64,000 nucleotides of DNA, from positions 166,222,001-166,286,000 of the forward strand of contig OZ024742.1 in assembly GCA_964016885.1 (NCBI GenBank), written 5' to 3'. Positions 1-64,000 of the stretch are shown in pieces. This DNA is from Eledone cirrhosa (taxonomy: Eukaryota). The stretch's first letter is position 1, and each line of letters begins with the position of its first letter. Position numbers and translations under genes: made by a program. The notes under the pieces were generated by a model that saw nothing but the letters and a program-made list of their open reading frames with translations, did no database searches and was not told where the DNA came from.

Positions 1-62
1 AAAAAATCAGGGGGAGATAATTTGTAAAAAAAAAATCAGGGGGAGATAATTTGTAAAAAAAA

Positions 63-3000
63 TCAGGGGTAGATAATTTGTAAAAAAAAATCAGGGGGAG
101 ATAATTTGTAAAAAAAAATCAGGGGGAGATAATTTCTAAAAAAATCAAGGGGAGATAATATGCAGCCGTCCAAGGGGAGATAATTTTCAGCCGTCCAAGG
201 AGAGGTAATTTCTAGCCGTCCAAGGGGAGATAATTTCCAGCCGTCCAAGGGGAGATAATTTCCAGCCGTCCAAGGGGAGATAGTTTTTTTAAAAAAATCA
301 GGCGGAGATAATTTGTAAAAAAAAAATCAGGGGGAGATAATTTGTAAAAAAAAATCAGGGGGAGATAATTTGTAAAAAAAAATCAGGGGGAGATAATTTG
401 TAAAAAAAATCAGGGGGAGATAATTAGTAAAAAAAATCAAGGGGAGATAATTTCCAGCCGTCCAAGGGGAGGTAATATCTAGCCGTCCAAGGGGAGATAA
501 TTTCCAGCCGTCCAAGGGGAGATAATTTCCAGCCGTCCAAGGGTAGATAATATCCAGCCGTCCAAGTAGACATATTTTCCAGCCGTCCAAGGAGAGGTAA
601 TTTCTAGCCGTCCAAGGGGAGATAAATTCCAGCCTCCAAGGGGAGATAATTTCCAGCCAGCCAAGGGGAGATAATTTGTAAAAAAATCAGGGGGAGATAA
701 TTTGTAAAAAAAATCAGGGGGAGATAATTTGTAAAAAAAAATCAGGGGGAGATAATTTGTAAAAAAAAATCAGGGGGAGATAATTTGTAAAAAAAATCAA
801 GGGGAGATAATTTGTAAAAAAAAATCAGGGGGAGATAATTTGTAAAAAAAAATCAGGGGGAGATAATTTGTAAAAAAAAATCAGGGGGAGATAATTTGTA
901 AAAAAAATCAAGGGGAGATAATTTCCAGCCGTCCAAGGAGAGATAATTTTAAAAAAAAATCAGGCGGAGATAATTTGTAAAAAAAAATCAGGGGGAGATA
1001 ATTTGTAAAAAAAAATCAGGGGGAGATAATTTGTAAAAAAAATCAAGGGGAGATAATTTCCAGCCGTCCAAGGGGAGATAATTTCCAGCCGTCCAAGGGG
1101 AGATAATTTTTTTAAAAAAATCAGGCGGAGATAATTTGTAAAAAAAATCAGGGGGAGATAATTTGTAAAAAAAAATCAGGGGGAGATAATTTGTAAAAAA
1201 AAATCAGGGGGAGATAATTTCCAGCCGTCCAAGGTAAGATAATTTCCAGCCCTCCAAGGGGCTATAATTTCCAGCCGTCCAAGGGTAGATAATATCCAGC
1301 CGTCCAAGTAGACATATTTTCCAGCCGTCCAAGGAGAGGTAATTTCTAGCCGTCCAAGGGGAGATAAATTCCAGCCTCCAAGGGGAGATAATTTCCAGCC
1401 AGCCAAAGGGAGATAATTTGTAAAAAAATCAGGGGGAGATAATTTGTAAAAAAAATCAGGGGGAGATAATTTGTAAAAAAAAATCAGGGGGAGATAATTT
1501 GTAAAAAAAAATCAGGGGGAGATAATTTGTAAAAAAAAATCAGGGGGAGATAATTTGTAAAAAAAATCAAGGGGAGATAATTTCCAGCCGTCCAAGGGGA
1601 GATAATTTTCAGCCGTCCAAGGGGAGATAATTTCCAGCCGTCCAAGGGGAGATAATTTCCATCCTTCCAAGGGGAGATAATTTCCAGCCGTCCAAGGGGA
1701 GATAATTTTCAGCCGTCCAAGGGGAGATAATTTCCCGCCAGCCAAGGGAAGATAATATTTTAAAAAATCAGGCGGAGATAATTTGTAAAAAAAATCAGGG
1801 GGAGATAATTTGTAAAAAAAAAATCAGGGGGAGATAATTTGTAAAAAAAATCAGGGGGAGATAATTTGTAAAAAAAAATCAGGGGTAGATAATTTGTAAA
1901 AAAAAATCAGGGGGAGATAATTTGTAAAAAAAATCAGGGGGAGATAATTTGTAAAAAAAATCAGGGGGAGATAATTTGTAAAAAAAATCAGGGGGAGATA
2001 ATTTGTAAAAAAAAATCAGGGGTAGATAATTTGTAAAAAAAAATCAGGGGGAGATAATTTGTAAAAAAAAATCAGGGGGAGATAATTTGTAAAAAAAATC
2101 AGGGGGAGATAATTTGTAAAAAAAAATCAGGGGGAGATAATTTCCGGCCGTCCAAGGGGAGATAATTTTCAGCCGTCCAAGGGGAGATAATTTCCCGCCA
2201 GCCAAGGGAAGATAATATTTAAAAAAATCAGGCGGAGATAATTTGTAAAAAAAATCAGGGGGAGATAATTTGTAAAAAAATCAGGGGGAGATAATTTGTA
2301 AAAAAAATCAAGGGGAGATAATTTCCAGCCGTCCAAGGGGAGGTAATATCTAGCCGTCCAAGGGGAGATAATTTCCAGCCGTCCAAGAGGAGATAATTTC
2401 CAGCCGTCCAAGGGTAGATAATATCCAGCCGTCCAAGGAGACATATTTTCCAGCCGTCCAAGGAGAGGTAATTTCTAGCCGTCCAAGGGGAGATAAATTC
2501 CAGCCTCCAAGGGGAGATAATTTCCAGCCAGCCAAGGGGAGATAATTTGTAAAAAAAATCAGGGGGAGATAATTTGTAAAAAAAATCAGGGGGAGATAAT
2601 TTGTAAAAAAATCAGGGGGAGATAATTTGTAAAAAAAAAATCAGGGGGAGATAATTTGTAAAAAAAATCAGGGGGAGATGATTTGTAAAAAAAAATCAGG
2701 GGTAGATAATTTGTAAAAAAAAATCAGGGGGTGATAATTTGTAAAAAAAAATCAGGGGGAGATAATTTGTAAAAAAAATCAAGGGGAGATAATTTCCAGC
2801 CGTCGAAGGGAAGATAATTTCCAGCCCTCCAAGGGGCTATAATTTCCAGCGTCCAAGGGGAGATAATTTCCAGCCGTCCAAGGGGAGATAATTTCCAGCC
2901 GTCCAAGGGTAGATAATATCCAGCCGTCCAAGTAGACATTTTCCAGCCGTCCAAGGAGAGGTAATTTCTAGCCGTCCAAGGGGAGATAAATTCCAGCCTC

Positions 3001-4354
3001 CAAGGGGAGATAATTTCCAGCCAGCCAAGGGGAGATAATTTGTAAAAAAATCAGGGGGAGATAATTTGTAAAAAAAATCAGGGGGAGATAATTTGTAAAA
3101 AAAAATCAGGGGGAGATAATTTGTAAAAAAAATCAGGGGGAGATAATTTGTAAAAAAAATCAGGGGGAGATAATTTGTAAAAAAAATCAAGGGGAGATAA
3201 TTTCCAGCCGTCCAAGGGGAGATAATTTTCAGCCGTCCAAGGGGAGATAATTTCCAGCCGTCCAAGGGGAGATAATTTCCATCCTTCCAAGGGGAGATAA
3301 TTTCCAGCCGTCCAAGGGGAGATAATTTTCAGCCGTCCAAGGGGAGATAATTTCCCGCCAGCCAAGGGAAGATAATATTTTAAAAAATCAGGCGGAGATA
3401 ATTTGTAAAAAAAATCAGGGGGAGATAATTTGTAAAAAAATCAGGGGGAGATAATTTGTAAAAAAAAAATCAGGGGGAGATAATTTGTAAAAAAAATCAG
3501 TGGGAGATAATTTGTAAAAAAAAATCAGGGGTAGATAATTTTTAAAAAAAAATCAGGGGGAGATAATTTGTAAAAAAAAAATCAGGGGGAGATAATTTGT
3601 AAAAAAAATCAAGGGGAGATAATTTCCAGCCGTCCAAGGAGAGATAATTTTTAAAAAAAATCAGGCGGAGATAATTTGTAAAAAAAAATCAAGGGGAGAT
3701 AATTTGTAAAAAAAAATCAAGGGGAGATAATTTGTAAAAAAAATCAAGGGGAGATAATTTCCAGCCGTCCAAGGGAAGATAATTTCCAGCACTCCAAGGG
3801 GCTATAATTTCCAGTGTCCAAGGGGAGATAATTTCCAGCCAGCGAAGGGGAGATAATTTTTTTAAAAAAATCAGGGGGAGATATGTAAAAAAAATCAGAG
3901 GGAGATAATTTCTAAAAAAAATCAAAGGGAGATAATTTCCAGCCGTCCAAAGAGAGATAATTTCTAGCCGTCCAAGGGGAGATAATTTCCAGCCAAGGGG
4001 AGATAATTTCCAGCCGTCCAAGGGGAGATAATTATTTAAAAAATCAGGTGGAGATAATTTGTAAAAAAAATCAGGGGGAGATAATTTGTAAAAACAAAAT
4101 CAAGGGCAGATAATTTCCAGCTGTCCAAGGGGAGATAATTTCCAGCCGTGCAAGGGGAGATAATTTCCAGCCGTCCAAGGGGAGATAATTTCCATCCTTC
4201 CAAGGGGAGATAATGTCCAGCCGTCCAAGGGGAGATAATTTCCCGCCAGCCAAGGTAAGATAATTTTTAAAAAAATCAGGCGGAGATTGTAAAAAAAATC
4301 AGGGGGAGATAATTTGTAAAAAAAAAATCAGGGGGAGATAATTTGTAAAAAAAA
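63..4354 (+). repeat. HOR family I unit (~4.29 kb)
   Basis: The marker block containing GATAATATGCAGCC starts at 63 and recurs at 4355 (4292 bp). The order of variant monomers (ATTAGT, GGTAAGAT, CCGGCCG, GGGTGAT, GTCGAAGG, GCACTCC, ATGTCC) matches the units at 22277, 26572 and 52290. Confidence 0.88.
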
Positions 4355-6305
4355 TCAGGGGTAGATAATTTGTAAAAAAAAATCAGGGGGAGATAATTTG
4401 TAAAAAAAAATCAGGGGGAGATAATTTCTAAAAAAATCAAGGGGAGATAATATGCAGCCGTCCAAGGGGAGATAATTTTCAGCCGTCCAAGGAGAGGTAA
4501 TTTCTAGCCGTCCAAGGGGAGATAATTTCCAGCCGTCCAAGGGGAGATAATTTCCAGCCGTCCAAGGGGAGATAGTTTTTTTAAAAAAATCAGGCGGAGA
4601 TAATTTGTAAAAAAAAAATCAGGGGGAGATGATTTGTAAAAAAAAATCAGGGGTAGATAATTTGTAAAAAAAAATCAGGGGGTGATAATTTGTAAAAAAA
4701 AATCAGGGGGAGATAATTTGTAAAAAAAATCAAGGGGAGATAATTTCCAGCCGTCGAAGGGAAGATAATTTCCAGCCCTCCAAGGGGCTATAATTTCCAG
4801 CGTCCAAGGGGAGATAATTTCCAGCCGTCCAAGGGGAGATAATTTCCAGCCGTCCAAGGGTAGATAATATCCAGCCGTCCAAGTAGACATTTTCCAGCCG
4901 TCCAAGGAGAGGTAATTTCTAGCCGTCCAAGGGGAGATAAATTCCAGCCTCCAAGGGGAGATAATTTCCAGCCAGCCAAGGGGAGATAATTTGTAAAAAA
5001 ATCAGGGGGAGATAATTTGTAAAAAAAATCAGGGGGAGATAATTTGTAAAAAAAAATCAGGGGGAGATAATTTGTAAAAAAAATCAGGGGGAGATAATTT
5101 GTAAAAAAAATCAGGGGGAGATAATTTGTAAAAAAAATCAAGGGGAGATAATTTCCAGCCGTCCAAGGGGAGATAATTTTCAGCCGTCCAAGGGGAGATA
5201 ATTTCCAGCCGTCCAAGGGGAGATAATTTCCATCCTTCCAAGGGGAGATAATTTCCAGCCGTCCAAGGGGAGATAATTTTCAGCCGTCCAAGGGGAGATA
5301 ATTTCCCGCCAGCCAAGGGAAGATAATATTTTAAAAAATCAGGCGGAGATAATTTGTAAAAAAAATCAGGGGGAGATAATTTGTAAAAAAATCAGGGGGA
5401 GATAATTTGTAAAAAAAAAATCAGGGGGAGATAATTTGTAAAAAAAATCAGGGGGAGATAATTTGTAAAAAAAAATCAGGGGTAGATAATTTGTAAAAAA
5501 AAATCAGGGGGAGATAATTTGTAAAAAAAAAATCAGGGGGAGATAATTTGTAAAAAAAATCAAGGGGAGATAATTTCCAGCCGTCCAAGGAGAGATAATT
5601 TTTAAAAAAAATCAGGCGGAGATAATTTGTAAAAAAAAATCAAGGGGAGATAATTTGTAAAAAAAAATCAAGGGGAGATAATTTGTAAAAAAAATCAAGG
5701 GGAGATAATTTCCAGCCGTCCAAGGGAAGATAATTTCCAGCACTCCAAGGGGCTATAATTTCCAGTGTCCAAGGGGAGATAATTTCCAGCCAGCGAAGGG
5801 GAGATAATTTTTTTAAAAAAATCAGGGGGAGATATGTAAAAAAAATCAGAGGGAGATAATTTCTAAAAAAAATCAAAGGGAGATAATTTCCAGCCGTCCA
5901 AAGAGAGATAATTTCTAGCCGTCCAAGGGGAGATAATTTCCAGCCAAGGGGAGATAATTTCCAGCCGTCCAAGGGGAGATAATTATTTAAAAAATCAGGT
6001 GGAGATAATTTGTAAAAAAAATCAGGGGGAGATAATTTGTAAAAACAAAATCAAGGGCAGATAATTTCCAGCTGTCCAAGGGGAGATAATTTCCAGCCGT
6101 GCAAGGGGAGATAATTTCCAGCCGTCCAAGGGGAGATAATTTCCATCCTTCCAAGGGGAGATAATGTCCAGCCGTCCAAGGGGAGATAATTTCCCGCCAG
6201 CCAAGGGAAGATAATTTTTAAAAAAATCAGGCGGAGATTGTAAAAAAAATCAGGGGGAGATAATTTGTAAAAAAAAAATCAGGGGGAGATAATTTGTAAA
6301 AAAAA
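4355..6305 (+). repeat. Truncated HOR family I unit (1951 bp)
   Basis: Markers at 2724/2837/3078/3689/4071/4355 recur at 4675/4788/5029/5640/6022/6306, a constant offset of 1951. Junction near 4620. Confidence 0.88.
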
Positions 6306-9300: not shown

Positions 9301-10635
9301 ATAATTTCCAGCCGTCCAAGGGGAGATAATTTTTTAAAAAATCAGGTGGAGATAATTTGTAAAAAAAATCAGGGGGAGATAATTTGTAAAAACAAAATCA
9401 AGGGGAGATAATTTCCAGCTGTCCAAGGGGAGATAATTTCCAGCCGTGCAAGGGGAGATAATTTCCAGCCGTCCAAGGGGAGATAATTTCCATCCTTCCA
9501 AGGGGAGATAATTTCCAGCCGTCCAAGGGGAGATAATTTCCCGCCAGCCAAGGGAAGATAATTTTTTAAAAAATCAGGCGGAGATTGTAAAAAAAATCAG
9601 GGGGAGATAATTTGTAAAAAATCAGGGGGAGATAATTTGTAAAAAAATCAAGGGGAGATAATTTCCAGCTGTCCAAGGGGAGGTAATATCTAGCCGTCCA
9701 AGGGGAGATAATTTCCAGCCGTCCAAGGGGAGATAATTTCCAGCCGTCCAAGGGTAGATAATATCCAGCCGTCCAAGGAGACATATTTTCCAGCCGTCCA
9801 AGGAGAGGTAATTTCTAGCCGTCCAAGTGGAGATAAATTCCAGCCTCCAAGGGGAGATAATTTCCAGCCAGCCAAGGGGAGATAATTTGTAAAAAAATCA
9901 GGGGGAGATAATTTGTAAAAAAAATCAGGGGGAGATAATTTGTAAAAAAAAATCAGGGGGAGATAATTTGTAAAAAAAATCAGGGGGAGATAATTTGTAA
10001 AAAAAATCAAGGGGAGATAATTTCCAGCCGTCCAAGGGGAGATAATTTTCAGCCGTCCAAGGGGAGATAATTTCCCGCCAGCCAAGGGAAGATAATATTT
10101 AAAAAATGAGGCGGAGATAATTTGTAAAAAAAAATCAGGGGTAGATAATTTGTAAAAAAAATCAGGGGGAGATAATTTGTAAAAAAAATCAAGGGGAGAT
10201 AATTTCCAGCCGTCCAAGGAGAGATAATTTTTAAAAAAAATCAGGCGGAGATAATTTGTAAAAAAAAAATCAGGGGGAGATAATTTGTAAAAAAAAATCA
10301 GGGGGAGATAATTTGTAAAAAAAATCAAGGGGAGATAATTTCCAGCCGTCCAAGGGGAGATAATTTTCAGCCGTCCAAGGGGAGATAATTTCCAGCCGTC
10401 CAAGGGGAGATAATTTAAAAAAAAAATCAGGCGGAGATAATTTGTAAAAAAAATCAAGGGGAGATAATTTGCAACCGTCCAAGGGGACATAATTTTCAGT
10501 CGTCCAAGGAGAGGTAATTTCTAGCCGTACAAGGGGAGATAATTTCCAGCCGTCCAAGGGGAGATAATTTCCAGCCGTCCAAGGGGAGATAATTTTTTTT
10601 TAAAAATCAGGCGGAGATAATTTGTAAAAAAAAAA
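6306..10635 (+). repeat. HOR family II unit (~4.33 kb)
   Basis: Carries variants absent from family I: CCGCCAACC, TGTACAAAA, GGGTATAT, ACAGGCGAAG, T13-AAA, CTAGACGTCC, CAGCTTTCC, ATGAGGCGG, TTTCGAGCC, GCAACCGT, CCGTACAA. Confidence 0.85.
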
Positions 10636-13600: not shown

Positions 13601-14322
13601 TTTAAAAAATCAGGTGGAGATAATTTGTAAAAAAAATCAGGGGGAGATAATTTGTAAAAACAAAATCAAGGGCAGATCATTTCCAGCTGTCCAAGGGGAG
13701 ATAAATTCCAGCCGTGCAAGGGGAGATAATTTCCAGCCGTCCAAGGGGAGATAATTTCCATCCTTCCAAGGGGAGATAATTTCCAGCCGTCCAAGGGGAG
13801 ATAATTTCCCGCCAGCCAAGGGAAGATAATTTTTTAAAAAATCAGGCGGAGATTGTAAAAAAAATCAGGGGGAGATAATTTGTAAAAAAATCAGGGGGAG
13901 ATAATTTGTAAAAAAATCAACGGGAGATAATTTCCAGCTGTCCAAGGGGAGGTAATATCTAGCCGTCCAAGGGGAGATAATTTCCAGCCGTCCAAGGGGA
14001 GATAATTTCCAGCCGTCCAAGGGTAGATAATATCCAGCCGTCCAAGGAGACATATTTTCCAGCCGTCCAAGGAGAGGTAATTTCTAGCCGTCCAAGGGGA
14101 GATAATTTCCAGCCGTCCAAGGGGAGATAATTTAAAAAAAAATCAGGCGGAGATAATTTGTAAAAAAAATCAAGGGGAGATAATTTGCAACCGTCCAAGG
14201 GGACATAATTTTCAGTCGTCCAAGGAGAGGTAATTTCTAGCCGTACAAGGGGAGATAATTTCCAGCCGTCCAAGGGGAGATAATTTCCAGCCGTCCAAGG
14301 GGAGATAATTTTTTTTTAAAAA
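10636..14322 (+). repeat. HOR family II unit, shortened (~3.7 kb)
   Basis: Family II markers recur about 4.24-4.27 kb after the previous unit (7387->11635, 8364->12606, 9369->13637), with an internal deletion near 14.1 kb. Confidence 0.8.
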
Positions 14323-22276: not shown

Positions 22277-25200
22277 TCAGGGGTAGATAATTTGTAAAAA
22301 AAAATCAGGGGGAGATAATTTGTAAAAAAAAATCAGGGGGAGATAATTTCTAAAAAAATCAAGGGGAGATAATATGCAGCCGTCCAAGGGGAGATAATTT
22401 TCAGCCGTCCAAGGAGAGGTAATTTCTAGCCGTCCAAGGGGAGATAATTTCCAGCCGTCCAAGGGGAGATAATTTCCAGCCGTCCAAGGGGAGATAGTTT
22501 TTTTAAAAAAATCAGGCGGAGATAATTTGTAAAAAAAAAATCAGGGGGAGATAATTTGTAAAAAAAAATCAGGGGGAGATAATTTGTAAAAAAAAATCAG
22601 GGGGAGATAATTTGTAAAAAAAATCAGGGGGAGATAATTAGTAAAAAAAATCAAGGGGAGATAATTTCCAGCCGTCCAAGGGGAGGTAATATCTAGCCGT
22701 CCAAGGGGAGATAATTTCCAGCCGTCCAAGGGGAGATAATTTCCAGCCGTCCAAGGGTAGATAATATCCAGCCGTCCAAGTAGACATATTTTCCAGCCGT
22801 CCAAGGAGAGGTAATTTCTAGCCGTCCAAGGGGAGATAAATTCCAGCCTCCAAGGGGAGATAATTTCCAGCCAGCCAAGGGGAGATAATTTGTAAAAAAA
22901 TCAGGGGGAGATAATTTGTAAAAAAAATCAGGGGGAGATAATTTGTAAAAAAAAATCAGGGGGAGATAATTTGTAAAAAAAAATCAGGGGGAGATAATTT
23001 GTAAAAAAAATCAAGGGGAGATAATTTGTAAAAAAAAATCAGGGGGAGATAATTTGTAAAAAAAAATCAGGGGGAGATAATTTGTAAAAAAAAATCAGGG
23101 GGAGATAATTTGTAAAAAAAATCAAGGGGAGATAATTTCCAGCCGTCCAAGGAGAGATAATTTAAAAAAAAAATCAGGCGGAGATAATTTGTAAAAAAAA
23201 ATCAGGGGGAGATAATTTGTAAAAAAAAATCAGGGGGAGATAATTTGTAAAAAAAATCAAGGGGAGATAATTTCCAGCCGTCCAAGGGGAGATAATTTCC
23301 AGCCGTCCAAGGGGAGATAATTTTTTTAAAAAAATCAGGCGGAGATAATTTGTAAAAAAAATCAGGGGGAGATAATTTGTAAAAAAAAATCAGGGGGAGA
23401 TAATTTGTAAAAAAAAATCAGGGGGAGATAATTTCCAGCCGTCCAAGGTAAGATAATTTCCAGCCCTCCAAGGGGCTATAATTTCCAGCCGTCCAAGGGT
23501 AGATAATATCCAGCCGTCCAAGTAGACATATTTTCCAGCCGTCCAAGGAGAGGTAATTTCTAGCCGTCCAAGGGGAGATAAATTCCAGCCTCCAAGGGGA
23601 GATAATTTCCAGCCAGCCAAGGGGAGATAATTTGTAAAAAAATCAGGGGGAGATAATTTGTAAAAAAAAATCAGGGGGAGATAATTTGTAAAAAAAAATC
23701 AGGGGGAGATAATTTGTAAAAAAAAATCAGGGGGAGATAATTTGTAAAAAAAAATCAGGGGGAGATAATTTGTAAAAAAAATCAAGGGGAGATAATTTCC
23801 AGCCGTCCAAGGGGAGATAATTTTCAGCCGTCCAAGGGGAGATAATTTCCAGCCGTCCAAGGGGAGATAATTTCCATCCTTCCAAGGGGAGATAATTTCC
23901 AGCCGTCCAAGGGGAGATAATTTTCAGCCGTCCAAGGGGAGATAATTTCCCGCCAGCCAAGGGAAGATAATATTTTAAAAAATCAGGCGGAGATAATTTG
24001 TAAAAAAAATCAGGGGGAGATAATTTGTAAAAAAATCAGGGGGAGATAATTTGTAAAAAAAAAATCAGGGGGAGATAATTTGTAAAAAAAATCAGGGGGA
24101 GATAATTTGTAAAAAAAAATCAGGGGTAGATAATTTGTAAAAAAAAATCAGGGGGAGATAATTTGTAAAAAAAATCAGGGGGAGATAATTTGTAAAAAAA
24201 ATCAGGGGGAGATAATTTGTAAAAAAAAATCAGGGGGAGATAATTTGTAAAAAAAAATCAGGGGTAGATAATTTGTAAAAAAAAATCAGGGGGAGATAAT
24301 TTGTAAAAAAAAATCAGGGGGAGATAATTTGTAAAAAAAATCAGGGGGAGATAATTTGTAAAAAAAAATCAGGGGGAGATAATTTCCGGCCGTCCAAGGG
24401 GAGATAATTTTCAGCCGTCCAAGGGGAGATAATTTCCCGCCAGCCAAGGGAAGATAATATTTAAAAAAATCAGGCGGAGATAATTTGTAAAAAAAATCAG
24501 GGGGAGATAATTTGTAAAAAAATCAGGGGGAGATAATTTGTAAAAAAAATCAAGGGGAGATAATTTCCAGCCGTCCAAGGGAAGGTAATATCTAGCCGTC
24601 CAAGGGGAGATAATTTCCAGCCGTCCAAGAGGAGATAATTTCCAGCCGTCCAAGGGTAGATAATATCCAGCCGTCCAAGGAGACATATTTTCCAGCCGTC
24701 CAAGGAGAGGTAATTTCTAGCCGTCCAAGGGGAGATAAATTCCAGCCTCCAAGGGGAGATAATTTCCAGCCAGCCAAGGGGAGATAATTTGTAAAAAAAA
24801 TCAGGGCGAGATAATTTGTAAAAAAAATCAGGGGGAGATAATTTGTAAAAAAATCAGGGGGAGATAATTTGTAAAAAAAAAATCAGGGGGAGATAATTTG
24901 TAAAAAAAATCAGGGGGAGATGATTTGTAAAAAAAAATCAGGGGTAGATAATTTGTAAAAAAAAATCAGGGGGTGATAATTTGTAAAAAAAAATCAGGGG
25001 GAGATAATTTGTAAAAAAAATCAAGGGGAGATAATTTCCAGCCGTCGAAGGGAAGATAATTTCCAGCCCTCCAAGGGGCTATAATTTCCAGCGTCCAAGG
25101 GGAGATAATTTCCAGCCGTCCAAGGGTAGATAATATCCAGCCGTCCAAGTAGACATTTTCCAGCCGTCCAAGTAGAGGTAATTTCTAGCCGTCCAAGGGG

Positions 25201-28200
25201 AGATAAATTCCAGCCTCCAAGGGGAGATAATTTCCAGCCAGCCAAGGGGAGATAATTTGTAAAAAAATCAGGGGGAGATAATTTGTAAAAAAAATCAGGG
25301 GGAGATAATTTGTAAAAAAAAATCAGGGGGAGATAATTTGTAAAAAAAATCAGGGGGAGATAATTTGTAAAAAAAATCAGGGGGAGATAATTTGTAAAAA
25401 AAATCAAGGGGAGATAATTTCCAGCCGTCCAAGGGGAGATAATTTTCAGCCGTCCAAGGGGAGATAATTTCCAGCCGTCCAAGGGGAGATAATTTCCATC
25501 CTTCCAAGGGGAGATAATTTCCAGCCGTCCAAGGGGAGATAATTTTCAGCCGTCCAAGGGGAGATAATTTCCCGCCAGCCAAGGGAAGATAATATTTTAA
25601 AAAATCAGGCGGAGATAATTTGTAAAAAAAATCAGGGGGAGATAATTTGTAAAAAAATCAGGGGGAGATAATTTGTAAAAAAAAAATCAGGGGGAGATAA
25701 TTTGTAAAAAAAATCAGTGGGAGATAATTTGTAAAAAAAAATCAGGGGTAGATAATTTTTAAAAAAAAATCAGGGGGAGATAATTTGTAAAAAAAAAATC
25801 AGGGGGAGATAATTTGTAAAAAAAATCAAGGGGAGATAATTTCCAGCCGTCCAAGGAGAGATAATTTTTAAAAAAAATCAGGCGGAGATAATTTGTAAAA
25901 AAAAATCAAGGGGAGATAATTTGTAAAAAAAAATCAAGGGGAGATAATTTGTAAAAAAAATCAAGGGGAGATAATTTCCAGCCGTCCAAGGGAAGATAAT
26001 TTCCAGCACTCCAAGGGGCTATAATTTCCAGTGTCCAAGGGGAGATAATTTCCAGCCAGCGAAGGGGAGATAATTTTTTTAAAAAAATCAGGGGGAGATA
26101 TGTAAAAAAAATCAGAGGGAGATAATTTCTAAAAAAAATCAAAGGGAGATAATTTCCAGCCGTCCAAAGAGAGATAATTTCTAGCCGTCCAAGGGGAGAT
26201 AATTTCCAGCCAAGGGGAGATAATTTCCAGCCGTCCAAGGGGAGATAATTATTTAAAAAATCAGGTGGAGATAATTTGTAAAAAAAATCAGGGGGAGATA
26301 ATTTGTAAAAACAAAATCAAGGGCAGATAATTTCCAGCTGTCCAAGGGGAGATAATTTCCAGCCGTGCAAGGGGAGATAATTTCCAGCCGTCCAAGGGGA
26401 GATAATTTCCATCCTTCCAAGGGGAGATAATGTCCAGCCGTCCAAGGGGAGATAATTTCCCGCCAGCCAAGGGAAGATAATTTTTAAAAAAATCAGGCGG
26501 AGATTGTAAAAAAAATCAGGGGGAGATAATTTGTAAAAAAAAAATCAGGGGGAGATAATTTGTAAAAAAAATCAGGGGTAGATAATTTGTAAAAAAAAAT
26601 CAGGGGGAGATAATTTGTAAAAAAAAATCAGGGGGAGATAATTTCTAAAAAAATCAAGGGGAGATAATATGCAGCCGTCCAAGGGGAGATAATTTTCAGC
26701 CGTCCAAGGAGAGGTAATTTCTAGCCGTCCAAGGGGAGATAATTTCCAGCCGTCCAAGGGGAGATAATTTCCAGCCGTCCAAGGGGAGATAGTTTTTTTA
26801 AAAAAATCAGGCGGAGATAATTTGTAAAAAAAAAATCAGGGGGAGATAATTTGTAAAAAAAAATCAGGGGGAGATAATTTGTAAAAAAAAATCAGGGGGA
26901 GATAATTTGTAAAAAAAATCAGGGGGAGATAATTAGTAAAAAAAATCAAGGGGAGATAATTTCCAGCCGTCCAAGGGGAGGTAATATCTAGCCGTCCAAG
27001 GGGAGATAATTTCCAGCCGTCCAAGGGGAGATAATTTCCAGCCGTCCAAGGGTAGATAATATCCAGCCGTCCAAGTAGACATATTTTCCAGCCGTCCAAG
27101 GAGAGGTAATTTCTAGCCGTCCAAGGGGAGATAAATTCCAGCCTCCAAGGGGAGATAATTTCCAGCCAGCCAAGGGGAGATAATTTGTAAAAAAATCAGG
27201 GGGAGATAATTTGTAAAAAAAATCAGGGGGAGATAATTTGTAAAAAAAAATCAGGGGGAGATAATTTGTAAAAAAAAATCAGGGGGAGATAATTTGTAAA
27301 AAAAATCAAGGGGAGATAATTTGTAAAAAAAAATCAGGGGGAGATAATTTGTAAAAAAAAATCAGGGGGAGATAATTTGTAAAAAAAAATCAGGGGGAGA
27401 TAATTTGTAAAAAAAATCAAGGGGAGATAATTTCCAGCCGTCCAAGGAGAGATAATTTAAAAAAAAAATCAGGCGGAGATAATTTGTAAAAAAAAATCAG
27501 GGGGAGATAATTTGTAAAAAAAAATCAGGGGGAGATAATTTGTAAAAAAAATCAAGGGGAGATAATTTCCAGCCGTCCAAGGGGAGATAATTTCCAGCCG
27601 TCCAAGGGGAGATAATTTTTTTAAAAAAATCAGGCGGAGATAATTTGTAAAAAAAATCAGGGGGAGATAATTTGTAAAAAAAAATCAGGGGGAGATAATT
27701 TGTAAAAAAAAATCAGGGGGAGATAATTTCCAGCCGTCCAAGGTAAGATAATTTCCAGCCCTCCAAGGGGCTATAATTTCCAGCCGTCCAAGGGTAGATA
27801 ATATCCAGCCGTCCAAGTAGACATATTTTCCAGCCGTCCAAGGAGAGGTAATTTCTAGCCGTCCAAGGGGAGATAAATTCCAGCCTCCAAGGGGAGATAA
27901 TTTCCAGCCAGCCAAGGGGAGATAATTTGTAAAAAAATCAGGGGGAGATAATTTGTAAAAAAAATCAGGGGGAGATAATTTGTAAAAAAAAATCAGGGGG
28001 AGATAATTTGTAAAAAAAAATCAGGGGGAGATAATTTGTAAAAAAAAATCAGGGGGAGATAATTTGTAAAAAAAATCAAGGGGAGATAATTTCCAGCCGT
28101 CCAAGGGGAGATAATTTTCAGCCGTCCAAGGGGAGATAATTTCCAGCCGTCCAAGGGGAGATAATTTCCATCCTTCCAAGGGGAGATAATTTCCAGCCGT

Positions 28201-30890
28201 CCAAGGGGAGATAATTTTCAGCCGTCCAAGGGGAGATAATTTCCCGCCAGCCAAGGGAAGATAATATTTTAAAAAATCAGGCGGAGATAATTTGTAAAAA
28301 AAATCAGGGGGAGATAATTTGTAAAAAAATCAGGGGGAGATAATTTGTAAAAAAAAAATCAGGGGGAGATAATTTGTAAAAAAAATCAGGGGGAGATAAT
28401 TTGTAAAAAAAAATCAGGGGTAGATAATTTGTAAAAAAAAATCAGGGGGAGATAATTTGTAAAAAAAATCAGGGGGAGATAATTTGTAAAAAAAATCAGG
28501 GGGAGATAATTTGTAAAAAAAAATCAGGGGGAGATAATTTGTAAAAAAAAATCAGGGGTAGATAATTTGTAAAAAAAAATCAGGGGGAGATAATTTGTAA
28601 AAAAAAATCAGGGGGAGATAATTTGTAAAAAAAATCAGGGGGAGATAATTTGTAAAAAAAAATCAGGGGGAGATAATTTCCGGCCGTCCAAGGGGAGATA
28701 ATTTTCAGCCGTCCAAGGGGAGATAATTTCCCGCCAGCCAAGGGAAGATAATATTTAAAAAAATCAGGCGGAGATAATTTGTAAAAAAAATCAGGGGGAG
28801 ATAATTTGTAAAAAAATCAGGGGGAGATAATTTGTAAAAAAAATCAAGGGGAGATAATTTCCAGCCGTCCAAGGGAAGGTAATATCTAGCCGTCCAAGGG
28901 GAGATAATTTCCAGCCGTCCAAGAGGAGATAATTTCCAGCCGTCCAAGGGTAGATAATATCCAGCCGTCCAAGGAGACATATTTTCCAGCCGTCCAAGGA
29001 GAGGTAATTTCTAGCCGTCCAAGGGGAGATAAATTCCAGCCTCCAAGGGGAGATAATTTCCAGCCAGCCAAGGGGAGATAATTTGTAAAAAAAATCAGGG
29101 GGAGATAATTTGTAAAAAAAATCAGGGGGAGATAATTTGTAAAAAAATCAGGGGGAGATAATTTGTAAAAAAAAAATCAGGGGGAGATAATTTGTAAAAA
29201 AAATCAGGGGGAGATGATTTGTAAAAAAAAATCAGGGGTAGATAATTTGTAAAAAAAAATCAGGGGGTGATAATTTGTAAAAAAAAATCAGGGGGAGATA
29301 ATTTGTAAAAAAAATCAAGGGGAGATAATTTCCAGCCGTCGAAGGGAAGATAATTTCCAGCCCTCCAAGGGGCTATAATTTCCAGCGTCCAAGGGGAGAT
29401 AATTTCCAGCCGTCCAAGGGGAGATAATTTCCAGCCGTCCAAGGGTAGATAATATCCAGCCGTCCAAGTAGACATTTTCCAGCCGTCCAAGTAGAGGTAA
29501 TTTCTAGCCGTCCAAGGGGAGATAAATTCCAGCCTCCAAGGGGAGATAATTTCCAGCCAGCCAAGGGGAGATAATTTGTAAAAAAATCAGGGGGAGATAA
29601 TTTGTAAAAAAAATCAGGGGGAGATAATTTGTAAAAAAAAATCAGGGGGAGATAATTTGTAAAAAAAATCAGGGGGAGATAATTTGTAAAAAAAATCAGG
29701 GGGAGATAATTTGTAAAAAAAATCAAGGGGAGATAATTTCCAGCCGTCCAAGGGGAGATAATTTTCAGCCGTCCAAGGGGAGATAATTTCCAGCCGTCCA
29801 AGGGGAGATAATTTCCATCCTTCCAAGGGGAGATAATTTCCAGCCGTCCAAGGGGAGATAATTTTCAGCCGTCCAAGGGGAGATAATTTCCCGCCAGCCA
29901 AGGGAAGATAATATTTTAAAAAATCAGGCGGAGATAATTTGTAAAAAAAATCAGGGGGAGATAATTTGTAAAAAAATCAGGGGGAGATAATTTGTAAAAA
30001 AAAAATCAGGGGGAGATAATTTGTAAAAAAAATCAGTGGGAGATAATTTGTAAAAAAAAATCAGGGGTAGATAATTTTTAAAAAAAAATCAGGGGGAGAT
30101 AATTTGTAAAAAAAAAATCAGGGGGAGATAATTTGTAAAAAAAATCAAGGGGAGATAATTTCCAGCCGTCCAAGGAGAGATAATTTTTAAAAAAAATCAG
30201 GCGGAGATAATTTGTAAAAAAAAATCAAGGGGAGATAATTTGTAAAAAAAAATCAAGGGGAGATAATTTGTAAAAAAAATCAAGGGGAGATAATTTCCAG
30301 CCGTCCAAGGGAAGATAATTTCCAGCACTCCAAGGGGCTATAATTTCCAGTGTCCAAGGGGAGATAATTTCCAGCCAGCGAAGGGGAGATAATTTTTTTA
30401 AAAAAATCAGGGGGAGATATGTAAAAAAAATCAGAGGGAGATAATTTCTAAAAAAAATCAAAGGGAGATAATTTCCAGCCGTCCAAAGAGAGATAATTTC
30501 TAGCCGTCCAAGGGGAGATAATTTCCAGCCAAGGGGACATAATTTCCAGCCGTCCAAGGGGAGATAATTATTTAAAAAATCAGGTGGAGATAATTTGTAA
30601 AAAAAATCAGGGGGAGATAATTTGTAAAAACAAAATCAAGGGCAGATAATTTCCAGCTGTCCAAGGGGAGATAATTTCCAGCCGTGCAAGGGGAGATAAT
30701 TTCCAGCCGTCCAAGGGGAGATAATTTCCATCCTTCCAAGGGGAGATAATGTCCAGCCGTCCAAGGGGAGATAATTTCCCGCCAGCCAAGGTAAGATAAT
30801 TTTTAAAAAAATCAGGCGGAGATTGTAAAAAAAATCAGGGGGAGATAATTTGTAAAAAAAAAATCAGGGGGAGATAATTTGTAAAAAAAA
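22277..30890 (+). repeat. Two tandem full HOR family I units (4295 and 4319 bp)
   Basis: Markers at 22277, 26572 and 30891. Both units share private variants AAGGGAAGGTAAT (~24578, ~28871) and AAGTAGAGGTAAT (~25170, ~29489). Confidence 0.88.
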
Positions 30891-33800
30891 TCAGGGGTAG
30901 ATAATTTGTAAAAAAAAATCAGGGGGAGATAATTTGTAAAAAAAAATCAGGGGGAGATAATTTCTAAAAAAATCAAGGGGAGATAATATGCAGCCGTCCA
31001 AGGGGAGATAATTTTCAGCCGTCCAAGGAGAGGTAATTTCTAGCCGTCCAAGGGGAGATAATTTCCAGCCGTCCAAGGGGAGATAATTTCCAGCCGTCCA
31101 AGGGGAGATAGTTTTTTTAAAAAAATCAGGCGGAGATAATTTGTAAAAAAAAAATCAGGGGGAGATAATTTGTAAAAAAAAATCAGGGGGAGATAATTTG
31201 TAAAAAAAAATCAGGGGGAGATAATTTGTAAAAAAAATCAGGGGGAGATAATTAGTAAAAAAAATCAAGGGGAGATAATTTCCAGCCGTCCAAGGGGAGG
31301 TAATATCTAGCCGTCCAAGGGGAGATAATTTCCAGCCGTCCAAGGGGAGATAATTTCCAGCCGTCCAAGGGTAGATAATATCCAGCCGTCCAAGTAGACA
31401 TATTTTCCAGCCGTCCAAGGAGAGGTAATTTCTAGCCGTCCAAGGGGAGATAAATTCCAGCCTCCAAGGGGAGATAATTTCCAGCCAGCCAAGGGGAGAT
31501 AATTTGTAAAAAAATCAGGGGGAGATAATTTGTAAAAAAAATCAGGGGGAGATAATTTGTAAAAAAAAATCAGGGGGAGATAATTTGTAAAAAAAAATCA
31601 GGGGGAGATAATTTGTAAAAAAAATCAGGGGGAGATAATTTGTAAAAAAAAATCAGGGGGAGATAATTTGTAAAAAAAAATCAGGGGGAGATAATTTGCA
31701 AAAAAAAATCAGGGGGAGATAATTTGTAAAAACAAATCAAGGGGAGATAATTTCCAGCCGTCCAAGGGGAGATAATTTTCAGCCGTCCAAGGAGAGGTAA
31801 TTTCTAGCCGTCCAAGGGGAGATAATTTCCAGCCGTCCAAGGGGAGATAATTTCCCGCCAGCCAAGGGAAGATAATATTTAAAAAATCAGGCGGAGATAA
31901 TTTGTAAAAAAAATCAGGGGGAGATAATTTGTAAAAAAATCAGGGGGAGATAATTTGTAAAAAAAAAATCAGGGGGAGATAATTTGTAAAAAAAATCAGG
32001 GGGAGATGATTTGTAAAAAAAATCAGGGGTAGATAATTTGTAAAAAAAAATCAGGCGGAGATAATTTGTAAAAAAAAATCAGGGGGAGATAATTTGTAAA
32101 AAAAATCAAGAGGAGATAATTTCCAGCCGTCCAAGGGGAGATAATTTTCAGCCGTCCAAGGGGAGATAATTTCCAGCCGTCCAAGGGGAGATAATTTCCA
32201 TCCTTCCAAGGGGAGATAATTTCCAGCCGTCCAAGGGGAGATAATTTCCCGCCAACCAAGGGAAGATAATTTTTAAAAAAATCAGGCGGAGATTGTAAAA
32301 AAAATCAGGGGGAGATAATTTGTAAAAAAATCAGGGGGAGATAATTTGTAAAAAAAAAATCAGGGGGAGATAATTTGTAAAAAAAATCAGGGGGAGATAA
32401 TTTGTAAAAAAAAATCAAGGGGAGATAATTTGTACAAAAAATCAGGGGTATATAATTTGTAAAAAAAAATCAGGGGGAGATAATTTGTAAAAAAAATTCA
32501 GGGGGAGATAATTTGTAAAAAAAATCAAGGGGAGATAATTTGCAGCCGTCCAAGGGGAGATAATTTTCAGCCGTCCAAGGAGAGGTAATTTCTAGCCGTC
32601 CAAGGTGAGATAATATCCAGCCGTCCAAGGGGAGATAATTTCCAGCCGTCCAAGGGGAGATAATTTTAAAAAAAAAACAGGCGAAGATAATTTGTAAAAA
32701 AAAAATCAGGGGGAGATAATTTGTAAAAAAAAATCAGGGGGAGATAATTTGTAAAAAAAATCAGGGGGAGGTAATTTGTAAAAAATATCAAGGGGAGATA
32801 ATTTCCAGCCGTCCAAGGGAAGATAATTTCCAGCCCTCCAAGGGGCTATAATTTCCAGCGTCCAAGGGGAGATAATTTCCAGCCAGCGAAGGGGAGATAA
32901 TTTTTTTTTTTTTAAATCAGGGGGACATAATTTGTAAAAAAAAATCAGGGGGAGATAATTTGTAAAAAAAATCAAGGGGAGATAATTTGTAAAAAAAAAT
33001 CAGGGGGAGATAATTTGTAAAAAAAAATCAGGGGGAGATAATTTGTAAAAAAAATTAAGGGGAGATAATTTGTAAAAAAAAATCAAGGGGAGATAATTTC
33101 CAGCCGTCCAAGGAGAGGTAATTTCTAGACGTCCAAGGGGAGATAATTTCCAGCCGTCCAAGGGGAGATAATTTCCAGCCGTCCAAGGGTAGATAATATC
33201 CAGCCGTCCAAGGAGACATATTTTCCAGCTTTCCAAGGAGAGGTAATTTCTAGCCGTCCAAGGGGAGATAAATTCCAGCCTCCAAGGGGAGATAATTTCC
33301 AGCCAGCCAAGGGGAGATAATTTGTAAAAAAAATCAGGGGGAGATAATTTGTAAAAAAAATCAGGGGGAGATAATTTGTAAAAAAAATCAGGGGGAGATA
33401 ATTTCCAGCCGTCCAAGGGGAGATAATTTTCAGCCGTCCAAGGGGAGATAATTTCCCGCCAGCCAAGGGAAGATAATATTTAAAAAATGAGGCGGAGATA
33501 ATTTGTAAAATAAATCAGGGGGAGATAATTTGTAAAAAAATCAGGGGGAGATAATTTGTAAAAAAAAAATCAGGGGGAGATAATTTGTAAAAAAAATCAG
33601 GGGGAGATAATTTGTAAAAAAAAATCAGGGGTAGATAATTTTTAAAAAAAAATCAGGGGGAGATAATTTGTAAAAAAAATCAGGGGGAGATAATTTATAA
33701 AAAAAATCAAGGGGAGATAATTTCCAGCCGTCCAAGGGAAGATAATTTCAAGCCCTCCAAGGGGCTATAATTTCCAGTGTCCAAGGGGAGATAATTTCCA

Positions 33801-60936: not shown

Positions 60937-63900
60937 TCAGGGGGAGATAATTTGTAAAAAAAAATCAGGGGGAGATAATTTGTAAAAAAAAATCAGGGGG
61001 AGATAATTTCTAAAAAAATCAAGGGGAGATAATATGCAGCCGTCCAAGGGGAGATAATTTTCAGCCGTCCAAGGAGAGGTAATTTCTAGCCGTCCAAGGG
61101 GAGATAATTTCCAGCCGTCCAAGGGGAGATAATTTCCAGCCGTCCAAGGGGAGATAGTTTTTTTAAAAAAATCAGGCGGAGATAATTTGTAAAAAAAAAA
61201 TCAGGGGGAGATAATTTGTAAAAAAAAATCAGGGGGAGATAATTTGTAAAAAAAAATCAGGGGGAGATAATTTGTAAAAAAAATCAGGGGGAGATAATTA
61301 GTAAAAAAAATCAAGGGGAGATAATTTCCAGCCGTCCAAGGGGAGGTAATATCTAGCCGTCCAAGGGGAGATAATTTCCAGCCGTCCAAGGGGAGATAAT
61401 TTCCAGCCGTCCAAGGGTAGATAATATCCAGCCGTCCAAGTAGACATATTTTCCAGCCGTCCAAGGAGAGGTAATTTCTAGCCGTCCAAGGGGAGATAAA
61501 TTCCAGCCTCCAAGGGGAGATAATTTCCAGCCAGCCAAGGGGAGATAATTTGTAAAAAAAATCAGGGGGAGATAATTTGTAAAAAAAATCAGGGGGAGAT
61601 AATTTGTAAAAAAAATCAGGGGGAGATAATTTCCAGCCGTCCAAGGGGAGATAATTTTCAGCCGTCCAAGGGGAGATAATTTCCCGCCAGCCAAGGGAAG
61701 ATAATATTTAAAAAATGAGGCGGAGATAATTTGTAAAATAAATCAGGGGGAGATAATTTGTAAAAAAATCAGGGGGAGATAATTTGTAAAAAAAAAATCA
61801 GGGGGAGATAATTTGTAAAAAAAATCAGGGGGAGATAATTTGTAAAAAAAAATCAGGGGTAGATAATTTTTAAAAAAAAATCAGGGGGAGATAATTTGTA
61901 AAAAAAATCAGGGGGAGATAATTTATAAAAAAAATCAAGGGGAGATAATTTCCAGCCGTCCAAGGGAAGATAATTTCAAGCCCTCCAAGGGGCTATAATT
62001 TCCAGTGTCCAAGGGGAGATAATTTCCAGCCAGCGAAGGGGAGATAATTTTTTTTTAAAAATCAGGGGGAGATTTGTAAAAAAAATCAGGGGGAGATAAT
62101 TTGTAAAAAAAATCAAAGGGAGATAATTTCCAGCCGTCCAAAGAGATAATTTCTAGCCGTCCAAGGGGAGATAATTTCGAGCCAAGGGGAGATAATTTCC
62201 AGCCGTCCAAGGGGAGATAATTTTTAAAAAAATCAGGTGGAGATAATTTGTAAAAAAAATCAGGGGGAGATAATTTGTAAAAACAAAATCAAGGGCAGAT
62301 AATTTCCAGCTGTCCAAGGGGAGATAATTTCCAGCCGTGCAAGGGGAGATAATTTCCAGCCGTCCAAGGGGAGATAATTTCCATCCTTCCAAGGGGAGAT
62401 AATTTCCAGCCGTCCAAGGGGAGATAATTTCCCGCCAGCCAAGGGAAGATAATTTTTTAAAAAATCAGGCGGAGATTGTAAAAAAAATCAGGGGGAGATA
62501 ATTTGTAAAAAAATCAGGGGGAGATAATTTGTAAAAAAATCAAGGGGAGATAATTTCCAGCTGTCCAAGGGGAGGTAATATCTAGCCGTCCAAGGGGAGA
62601 TAATTTCCAGCCGTCCAAGGGGAGATAATTTCCAGCCGTCCAAGGGTAGATAATATCCAGCCGTCCAAGGAGACATATTTTCCAGCCGTCCAAGGAGAGG
62701 TAATTTCTAGCCGTCCAAGTGGAGATAAATTCCAGCCTCCAAGGGGAGATAATTTCCAGCCAGCCAAGGGGAGATAATTTGTAAAAAAATCAGGGGGAGA
62801 TAATTTGTAAAAAAAATCAGGGGGAGATAATTTGTAAAAAAAAATCAGGGGGAGATAATTTGTAAAAAAAATCAGGGGGAGATAATTTGTAAAAAAAATC
62901 AAGGGGAGATAATTTCCAGCCGTCCAAGGGGAGATAATTTTCAGCCGTCCAAGGGGAGATAATTTCCCGCCAGCCAAGGGAAGATAATATTTAAAAAATG
63001 AGGCGGAGATAACTTGTAAAAAAAAATCAGGGGTAGATAATTTGTAAAAAAAATCAGGGGGAGATAATTTGTAAAAAAAATCAAGGGGAGATAATTTCCA
63101 GCCGTCCAAGGAGAGATAATTTTTAAAAAAAATCAGGCGGAGATAATTTGTAAAAAAAAAATCAGGGGGAGATAATTTGTAAAAAAAAATCAGGGGGAGA
63201 TAATTTGTAAAAAAAATCAAGGGGAGATAATTTCCAGCCGTCCAAGGGGAGATAATTTTCAGCCGTCCAAGGGGAGATAATTTCCAGCCGTCCAAGGGGA
63301 GATAATTTTAAAAAAAAATCAGGCGGAGATAATTTGTAAAAAAAATCAAGGGGAGATAATTTGCAACCGTCCAAGGGGACATAATTTTCAGTCGTCCAAG
63401 GAGAGGTAATTTCTAGCCGTACAAGGGGAGATAATTTCCAGCCGTCCAAGGGGAGATAATTTCCAGCCGTCCAAGGGGAGATAATTTTTTTTTAAAAATC
63501 AGGCGGAGATAATTTGTAAAAAAAAAATCAGGGGGAGATAATTTGTAAAAAAAAATCAGGGGGAGATAATTTGTAAAAAAAAATCAGGGGGAGATAATTT
63601 GTAAAAAAAATCAAGGGGAGATAATTTCCAGCCGTCCAAGGGAAGATAATTTCCAGCCCTCCAAGGGGCTATAATTTCCAGCGTCCAAGGGGAGATAATT
63701 TCCAGCCAGCGAAGGGGAGATAATTGTTTTAAAAAAATCATTGGGAGATTTGTAAAAAAAATCAGGGGGAGATAATTAATAAAAAAAATCAAGGGGAGAT
63801 AATTTCCAGCCGTCCAAGGGGAGGTAATATCTAGCCGTCCAAGGGGAGATAATTTCCAGCCGTCCAAGGGGAGATAATTTCCAGCCGTCCAAGGGTAGAT

Positions 63901-64000
63901 AATATCCAGCCGTCCAAGGAGACATATTTTCCAGCCGTCCAAGGAGAGGTAATTTCTAGCCGTCCAAGGGGAGATAAATTCCAGCCTCCAAGGGGAGATA
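60937..64000 (+). repeat. Truncated family II unit followed by the start of a Ib unit (from ~63499)
   Basis: Markers 62153/62582/63556 equal 33925/34354/35328 + 28228. TCATTGGG head at ~63738. Confidence 0.8.

What the first reader, a model, noticed from the sequence alone, without database searches (positions are those of the whole stretch)
1..64000. Binary satellite: two interleaved monomers sharing a 13-bp core but with unrelated tails (A-tract vs GC-rich)
Seen: GGGGAGATAATTT recurs every 25-29 bp and is followed by either GT(A)7-10TCAG or CCAGCCGTCCAA. The two types alternate in runs of about 1-14, so the array reads as a two-letter string. The tails are too different to be ordinary point-mutation variants, while the core is shared. 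Inference: the core is constrained, for example as a protein-binding site, and the array is a centromeric or heterochromatic satellite. I do not recognise the family and cannot confirm it is undescribed.
Basis: partly seen in the sequence, partly recalled or inferred. Interest (0 to 1): 0.75.

Follow-up and report, generated by a model that had tools for sequence, protein, structure and literature searches.

The report
Two-unit satellite with fossil edge layers
This window is part of a real, megabase-scale repeat in a likely octopus genome, built from alternating short runs of two 25-28-base units whose shared core varies as much as their tails, so the pattern likely records an old joining of two related repeats that was then copied many times, and a centromere role is possible but untested.

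Summary
Observation confirmed: 2,455 units (1,268 A-tract, 1,187 GC-rich) tile 63,991 of 64,000 bases on one strand. The window lies in an array of about 2 Mb on a 379-Mb chromosome of a mollusc, likely an octopod. The family is estimated at 17 Mb. It sits mostly mid-chromosome on the four giant chromosomes, with small arrays on C5, C21 and C27.

The A/B string is not a free code. Most junctions carry founder marks (691 of 792 A-to-B junctions against 75 of 3,424 A-to-A), and the string repeats in 2-4.3-kb higher-order segments.

Array edges keep likely ancestors: a 19-bp unit inside a composite repeat found beside telomere-like tracts, then a pure 25-bp layer. An A-only array lies on C5. A centromere role is open (about 25%). 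I found no published description. The scan reported this family before on other pieces of this genome (e1-10323831, e1-10328835). Verdict: new member of a known kind.

The parts
1..64000 (+). Uninterrupted A/B satellite; part of an array of about 2.0 Mb (G000:C3 about 165.873-167.893 Mb)
   Evidence: array ends read; interior sampled, not read through
885..911 (+). Example A unit (13-bp core, GT, A-tract, TCA); here the last unit of a run, ending in AA, the founder mark of A-to-B junctions
912..936 (+). Example B unit, the modal 25-mer (364 exact copies in the window)
149..273 (+). First B run (5 units); the A unit starting at 274 is a T-rich first-of-run variant, the mark of B-to-A junctions
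140..4431 (+). One higher-order segment of 4,292 bp, defined by exact recurrence of 140-260 at 4,432
22354..30967 (+). Two consecutive higher-order segments of 4,295 and 4,319 bp

Best explanation
The window is a non-coding satellite whose two units share a core likely because both descend from one short repeat, and whose A/B pattern likely comes from copying a founding run-of-A plus run-of-B block by unequal exchange, not from a protein reading the core. Shown: the tiling, the equal variability of core and tails, the junction marks, the higher-order segments, and the order of related layers at the array edge. Inferred history: (1) a 19-bp unit arose inside a composite repeat (27-bp palindromic unit, 32-bp unit, AT tract) whose other copies lie beside interior telomere-like tracts; (2) small insertions gave a 25-bp unit, B', amplified with a shortened AT island; (3) one base change gave B; (4) an A-tailed sibling, also present as a pure array on C5, was joined to B through the shared core in one or a few events; (5) the block was amplified, run lengths drifted by whole-unit gains and losses, kilobase segments were re-duplicated, and patches moved between chromosomes. 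The core then works as a register for misaligned exchange, which makes a minority of new junctions. The array likely behaves as pericentromeric heterochromatin; CENP-A binding is untested.
For: Core no better kept than tails in AB-A, AB-B, B' layers and the A-only array. Junction marks in 20 samples: the A unit ends in AA in 691 of 792 A-to-B junctions vs 75 of 3,424 A-to-A; the next A is non-canonical, mostly T-rich, in 595 of 794 B-to-A vs 211 of 3,424 A-to-A; the last B has the AGC(C/G)AA end in 521 of 794 B-to-A vs 59 of 3,234 B-to-B. Secondary junctions exist: 96 G-ended A-to-B copies in 35 contexts, and 19 plain B to canonical A copies in 12 contexts. Layers in order with no gap at C3:165.860-165.874 Mb: 19-mer composite, B' with island, then AB (no N in these loci). 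B' layers also lie at C1:252.13-252.21 Mb and C21:17.716 Mb. The B' tail occurs 4 times and the B tail 2,093 times in AB samples. 21-bp units of intermediate form occur in AB arrays (45 copies). The A-only array at C5:64.25-64.30 Mb has 0 B-like tails in 295 units and 11.6% divergence vs 4.1-7.2% in the five AB samples measured. 100-mer sharing is 0.22-0.53 within sub-arrays of C1, C2 and C3 vs 0.01-0.21 between chromosomes. No Rfam match in 1-20,000.
Against: The 11-bp stem survived in four unit types while the tails changed, which selection could also explain. Site counts are small, so weak constraint is not excluded; T8, A9 and T13 of B vary in only 0.5% of copies, as do the last two tail positions (0.8%, 0.3%). 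Direction is inferred from position and divergence, not dated. The C5 A-only array also holds junction-type variants (20 T-rich, 21 GCGG/GTGG-start, 10 CAA-ended of 363), so it may be derived from AB rather than a parent. The 21-mers may be deletion products. The source of the A tail is unresolved. C4 samples share only 0.07-0.15 of 100-mers with each other, and some C2 and C3 pairs share 0.01-0.13, so homogenisation is by sub-array and not by chromosome.
Confidence: 0.68

Rival explanations
1. The arrays are the functional, CENP-A-bearing centromeres of the giant chromosomes (compatible with the history above).
For: Megabase arrays at 57% and 63% (C1), 59-60% (C2), 43-45% (C3), 37% and 54% (C4) of chromosome length; small arrays at 48% (C5) and 50% (C21). 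Young, homogenised, with higher-order repeats and older flanking layers. Sub-nucleosomal centromere candidates are known (32 of 263 families under 100 bp; 10.64898/2026.09.17.752431, section 6).
Against: Two arrays 27 Mb apart on C1 and 65 Mb apart on C4. The C3 region is a mosaic of at least five other satellites. Unchecked notes name other candidates (e1-10311123, e1-10347674). A+B block length is 286 +/- 93 bp, with no nucleosome-sized unit.
Confidence: 0.25
2. The core is a protein-binding box under selection, and the tails are free spacers. The core holds AGATAA, like a GATA-factor site (likeness recalled, no call).
For: Stem shared by 19-mer, B', B and A. AGATAA is intact in 92% of A units.
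Against: Exact core in only 66% of A and 60% of B units; AGATAA intact in 79% of B. Core and tail vary equally at matched bases in four data sets; in the B' layers the core is the more variable part.
Confidence: 0.1
3. A and B are freely interchanged at every core, so the string is a continually rewritten two-letter code.
For: Secondary junctions exist in at least 35 and 12 distinct contexts; run lengths vary from 1 to 22 across samples.
Against: 87% of A-to-B and 75% of B-to-A junctions carry founder marks; 222 blocks reduce to 45 types in repeated order.
Confidence: 0.05
4. The inverted blocks mark centric fusions that made the giant chromosomes.
For: Minus-strand arrays lie left of plus-strand arrays on C1, C2 and C3. 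The karyotype is bimodal, four of 379-443 Mb and then 136 Mb or less. Octopods typically have 30 chromosomes and further fusions are reported (PMC12682272, passages).
Against: Both C3 minus blocks end at 200-N scaffold gaps (165.654 and 168.747 Mb) and share 0.40-0.42 of 100-mers, so order and orientation there rest on scaffolding. The opposed C2 blocks are one lineage (0.30-0.53). Unplaced C123 carries both C1 array types on one strand. Synteny was not tested.
Confidence: 0.1

Closest known systems
Meloidogyne box-containing satellites (PMC3694981: abstract and section 13 read; PMC13404089: abstract read)
   Same: Unlike monomers share a short motif; they occur in simple arrays and in mixed higher-order arrays; transitions lie at the motif, which is proposed to promote rearrangement.
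   Different: There the box is less variable than the rest and (PMC13404089 abstract) marks CenH3 centromeres. Here the core is half the unit, is not less variable, and most junctions descend from founders. No homology is claimed.
Intermixed ditypic satellites with heterogeneous higher-order repeats (10.64898/2026.09.17.752431: abstract, section 6 and passages read)
   Same: Two related families intermixed in one region; irregular higher-order repeats; similarity higher within than between arrays.
   Different: Named examples have 92-193-bp monomers. Here the units are 25-28 bp and alternate every 1-15 units. The main text has no hit for octop, cephalopod or mollusc; its Supplementary Table 2 was not seen.
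Layered primate alpha satellite (PMC2729386: abstract read)
   Same: Older relatives flank a young homogenised array, and layers are shared between chromosomes.
   Different: Unrelated sequence; layers were seen on one side of each array only; the outer layers here are composites with AT islands; none is shown to be a former centromere.
Minisatellite variant-repeat codes such as human MS32 (recalled, no call)
   Same: An array that reads as a two-letter string.
   Different: Those variants differ by single bases in kilobase arrays; here whole tails differ and arrays are megabases.

Membership tests
Satellite DNA with heterogeneous higher-order repeats | Long head-to-tail array of a short non-coding unit | tested here: met
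   about 2.0-Mb array by end mapping and sampling
Satellite DNA with heterogeneous higher-order repeats | Multi-unit segments re-duplicated at irregular spacing | tested here: met
   spacings of about 1.95, 3.0, 4.0 and 4.3 kb; 89% of 120-mers repeated
Centromeric satellite (CAP criteria of 10.64898/2026.09.17.752431) | Long, homogenised arrays | tested here: met
   4.1-7.2% mean divergence in five samples; 100-mer sharing
Centromeric satellite (CAP criteria of 10.64898/2026.09.17.752431) | Shared by multiple chromosomes, one region each | tested here: inconclusive
   7 of about 27 chromosomes; two regions on C1 and C4; rare-variant searches can miss small arrays
Centromeric satellite (CAP criteria of 10.64898/2026.09.17.752431) | Gene-poor, transposon-rich surroundings | not tested
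   flank probes show other satellites and retroelement-like pieces, not quantified
Centromeric satellite | CENP-A occupancy or location at the constriction | not testable with these tools
   needs CUT&Tag, ChIP or FISH
Meloidogyne-type box satellites | Short motif shared by otherwise unlike monomers | tested here: met
   11-bp stem in 19-mer, B', B and A
Meloidogyne-type box satellites | Motif less variable than the rest of the monomer | tested here: not met
Meloidogyne-type box satellites | Transitions between monomer types lie at the motif | tested here: met
   type switches fall between whole units, at the shared block; most carry founder marks
Meloidogyne-type box satellites | Likeness to the CENP-B box | not tested
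   no call supplied the box sequence
Layered satellite centromere (alpha-satellite type) | Older related layers at array edges, shared between chromosomes | tested here: met
   C3, C1 and C21 edges
Layered satellite centromere (alpha-satellite type) | Layers symmetric about an active centromere | tested here: not met
   the 3' end of the C3 array runs straight into an AT-rich 9-mer satellite
A described satellite (Dfam, Repbase, nt) | Sequence match to a named family | not testable with these tools
   those libraries are not held; full-text motif searches gave 0 papers on either strand

The most novel reading that the evidence does not exclude
A telomere-adjacent composite repeat gave birth, through steps still visible in order at the array edge (19-mer, 25-mer with AT island, two-unit array), to the satellite that now forms the working centromeres of four giant, fusion-derived octopod chromosomes, while the small chromosomes use another repeat: a subtelomere-to-centromere conversion with a complete fossil record.
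Probability: 0.12. Interest if true: 0.75.

Novelty: new member of a known kind. Interest (0 to 1): 0.36.

Why it matters
My searches listed no paper whose title or abstract start names a cephalopod centromeric satellite, so a young 17-Mb family in the middle of the giant chromosomes is a ready probe for FISH and CENP-A mapping. It is also a clean example of how a two-letter satellite can arise without selection on the shared motif, with likely ancestors preserved beside it. The mechanism itself (box-mediated joining, unequal exchange, layered expansion) is already known from nematodes and primates.

Tried and rejected
Cross-species conservation: not established. 20 of 24 listed runs hold words of the stretch. 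Laid on one A+B stretch, summed depth peaks at about 6,250,000 in X1 (organism A), 19,500 in X5, 6,700 in X7, 160-260 in X6, X8 and X11, and 0 in X21. The low holders are near-identical at about 0.003-0.004% of X1, which cross-contamination by a very high-copy repeat would also give. X5 and X7 may be relatives with small arrays. 8 of 24 runs were laid.

Centric-fusion symmetry: set aside because both C3 minus blocks end at scaffold gaps.

Coding or structured RNA: the longest stop-free stretches are 57-75 codons on + and 241-276 on -, as a repeat can give; no Rfam match in the first 20 kb of 64.

Phased bending: A-tracts are 27.3 bp apart, 2.6 helical turns, so bends would largely cancel (inference).

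Nucleosome-sized unit: blocks are 286 +/- 93 bp.

Dispersed element carrying the core: only 7 of 70 hits of core plus odd tail lie outside arrays or edge layers, at 6 places; 5 were fetched and are isolated matches.

An A13 variant search gave 0 hits.

Origin of the A tail: three 10-12-bp look-alikes (inverted 32-bp unit of the composite, the neighbouring AT-rich 11-13-mer, the C5 20-mer) cannot be told apart or from chance.

A founder context inside the B' layer was sought and not supported (2 of 242 and 0 of 770 pairs).

A search of earlier findings by sequence gave two unrelated virus notes; 'near' gave none.
Full report
1. Observation. The window is one uninterrupted satellite. A two-template decomposition gives 2,455 units, 1,268 A and 1,187 B, over 63,991 of 64,000 bases, with 153 distinct sequences. 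The exact 13-mer occurs 1,551 times on + and never on -. Runs are A 2-15 and B 1-13, means 5.7 and 5.3. Switches number 447 against 1,226 for random order. Both tails end in CA(A/G), so the shared block is about 16 bp. Raw reads of another sample with the same species label hold the A-to-B junction (X22), so it is not an assembly artefact.

2. Setting. The window is G000:C3:166.222-166.286 Mb in a 3.0-Gb assembly. The mollusc hemocyanin domain PF14830 matches 39 times, and the translated exon matches only hemocyanins in the PDB (14 of 14). Two C1 clusters have seven domain hits each, which fits an octopod (unit count recalled, no call). C1-C4 are 443, 416, 379 and 379 Mb; the next are 136 and 135 Mb.

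3. Extent. A 52-bp B-B word has 13,465 matches in the genome and 51 in the window, giving about 17 Mb; its density varies from 0.12 to 1.25 per kb among samples, so this is rough. Probes place arrays as follows. C3: about 162.7-165.654 Mb (-), 165.873-167.893 (+), 168.747-169.1 (-). C2: about 245.6-251.1. C1: 251.19-252.2 and 279.2. C4: 205.47-206.4 and 140.1. C21: 17.542-17.717. C27: about 1.68, at least 1.5 kb. C5: 64.25-64.30, A only. Unplaced: C123, with single hits on C134, C1453 and C1499. By my sum these come to about 16 Mb, so little is left for other chromosomes. Interiors were sampled, not read through. Three rare-variant searches were listed in full (61, 70 and 43 hits) and one in part (100 of 315), so small arrays can be missed.

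4. Is the core constrained? In the window, distinct-variant variability in B is 0.108 core and 0.106 tail. In 8,284 units from 20 samples it is 0.055 vs 0.079 (B, p=0.41) and 0.041 vs 0.037 (A; p=0.024, with the core the higher). Common alleles per site are 1.15 vs 1.42 and 0.92 vs 0.93. The exact core is in 60% of B and 66% of A units. Matched by base, core vs tail: AB-B G/C 0.077 vs 0.078, A/T 0.038 vs 0.052; AB-A G/C 0.062 vs 0.121, A/T 0.011 vs 0.008; A-only array G/C 0.132 vs 0.133, A/T 0.040 vs 0.044; B' layers G/C 0.091 vs 0.064, A/T 0.077 vs 0.036. No distinct-variant test is significant. One class (AB-A G/C, 3 tail sites, two of them junction marks) leans towards a quieter core. Copies are not independent and sites are few, so weak constraint stays possible; strong constraint is not seen.

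5. How the string is built. 222 A+B blocks (286 +/- 93 bp) form 45 types that recur in ordered strings, with spacings near 1.95, 3.0, 4.0 and 4.3 kb. Junction units carry marks in all arrays pooled: AA-ended A in 691 of 792 A-to-B junctions vs 75 of 3,424 A-to-A; non-canonical next A in 595 of 794 B-to-A vs 211 of 3,424; AGC(C/G)AA-ended last B in 521 of 794 vs 59 of 3,234. Free exchange at the core would not give this, so most junctions are inferred to be copies of founders. A minority lack the marks (96 copies in 35 contexts; 19 in 12), as new crossovers in the core would give. 100-mer sharing is high within sub-arrays and lower between chromosomes. Still, 5,241 of 8,284 units are variants seen in all six array groups, so the family spread after the variants arose.

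6. Edge layers. At C3:165.860-165.874 Mb, with no gap, three layers follow in order. Layer I has runs of a 19-bp unit with the first 11 bases of the core, inside a composite of a 27-bp palindromic unit, a 32-bp unit and AT tracts. Layer II has runs of a 25-bp unit, B', one base from B, separated by a shortened AT island. Layer III is the AB array. B' layers also lie at C1:252.13-252.21 and C21:17.716 Mb. The 19-mer dimer occurs only at C2:192.18 and C3:165.86 Mb (10 hits). The composite without the 19-mer occurs at eight further places among the top matches (40 of 954 candidates scored), of which I fetched eight stretches on six chromosomes. Six of these adjoin degenerate TTAGGG tracts, one adjoins a related 6-bp tract, and one is a plain 27-bp array. 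The A-only array on C5 is the most diverged member (11.6%) but holds junction-type variants, so parent or offshoot is undecided. The source of the A tail is unresolved.

7. Centromere? Position, size, youth and layering fit; restriction to 7 of about 27 chromosomes, double sites on C1 and C4, and the mosaic of other satellites count against a general centromere. The apparent inverted symmetry on C3 rests on two 200-N gaps. I put CENP-A occupancy at about 25%.

8. Other species. Inconclusive; depths outside organism A are 0.3% of X1 or less and may be contamination.

9. Literature. Motif searches on both strands gave 0 papers. Topic searches were seen as listings only and show no title on this family. 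Read: PMC3694981 (abstract, section 13), PMC13404089 (abstract), PMC2729386 (abstract), PMC12682272 (passages), 10.64898/2026.09.17.752431 (abstract, section 6, passages; supplements not seen, and its family table could hold this repeat). Dfam, Repbase and nt could not be searched.

10. Earlier notes. e1-10323831 reached the same reading on another piece of this genome, and e1-10328835 described an edge composite. They are not independent support. My tests agree with them. I had seen the junction marks before reading the first, and read the second before fetching the edges.

11. Verdict. Real, apparently undescribed in print, ordinary in mechanism: a new member of the mixed, higher-order satellites. 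It works like the Meloidogyne box satellites but fails their low-variability test. Interest 0.36.

Noticed in passing
L172-L178 (G000 C14:23.92, C3:150.93, C2:229.95, C8:31.03 and 30.88, C13:26.39, C4:101.48 Mb): The composite repeat sits beside interior telomere-like tracts. On C8, C13 and C14 these lie at 51-56% of chromosome length, so they may mark centromere regions or old fusions.
   Followed up: partly
L154:8260 (G000:C3:167.893 Mb); L171; L139:1-1950; L113, L157: An AT-rich 9-mer satellite abuts AB arrays on C3 (joined inside the core at a shared AATT) and on C21; an 11-13-mer AT satellite follows on C3 and lies beside the C2 array.
   Followed up: partly
L081-L083 (G000:C123) vs L064-L066 (C1): Unplaced C123 carries both C1 array types (251 Mb and 279 Mb) on one strand. 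This suggests the two C1 arrays are adjacent in one haplotype, or that the 27 Mb between them is inverted or mis-scaffolded.
   Followed up: no
L186:4112-4311 and L188:6925-7124: 200-N scaffold gaps at the ends of both C3 minus-strand blocks, which are one lineage and may be contiguous.
   Followed up: partly
L181:1940 onward, L162-L164 (G000:C5:64.30-64.60 Mb): A 20-21-bp satellite with an A-tract and a G-run lies head to head with the A-only array; the junction looks like a short fold-back.
   Followed up: no
L021, L084 (G000:C3:162.5-162.6 Mb); L090, L091, L132:3600-4920: Other satellites (23 bp, 55 bp, 57 bp, about 80 bp) flank or separate the C3 arrays.
   Followed up: no
L166-L168 (G000:C4:139.9-140.6 Mb): The second C4 array is embedded in a 7-bp-type satellite whose orientation flips across it.
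   Followed up: no
pooled A units: A-tract length is tightly held at 7-10 (3,160 of 3,185 scored), with 61 genome-wide hits for A12 and none for A13 in the contexts searched.
   Followed up: partly
G000:C1:173.75-173.91 Mb, C26:21.93-22.02 Mb, C27:0.06 Mb: Several multi-domain hemocyanin gene copies on three chromosomes; the two on C26 are on opposite strands.
   Followed up: no
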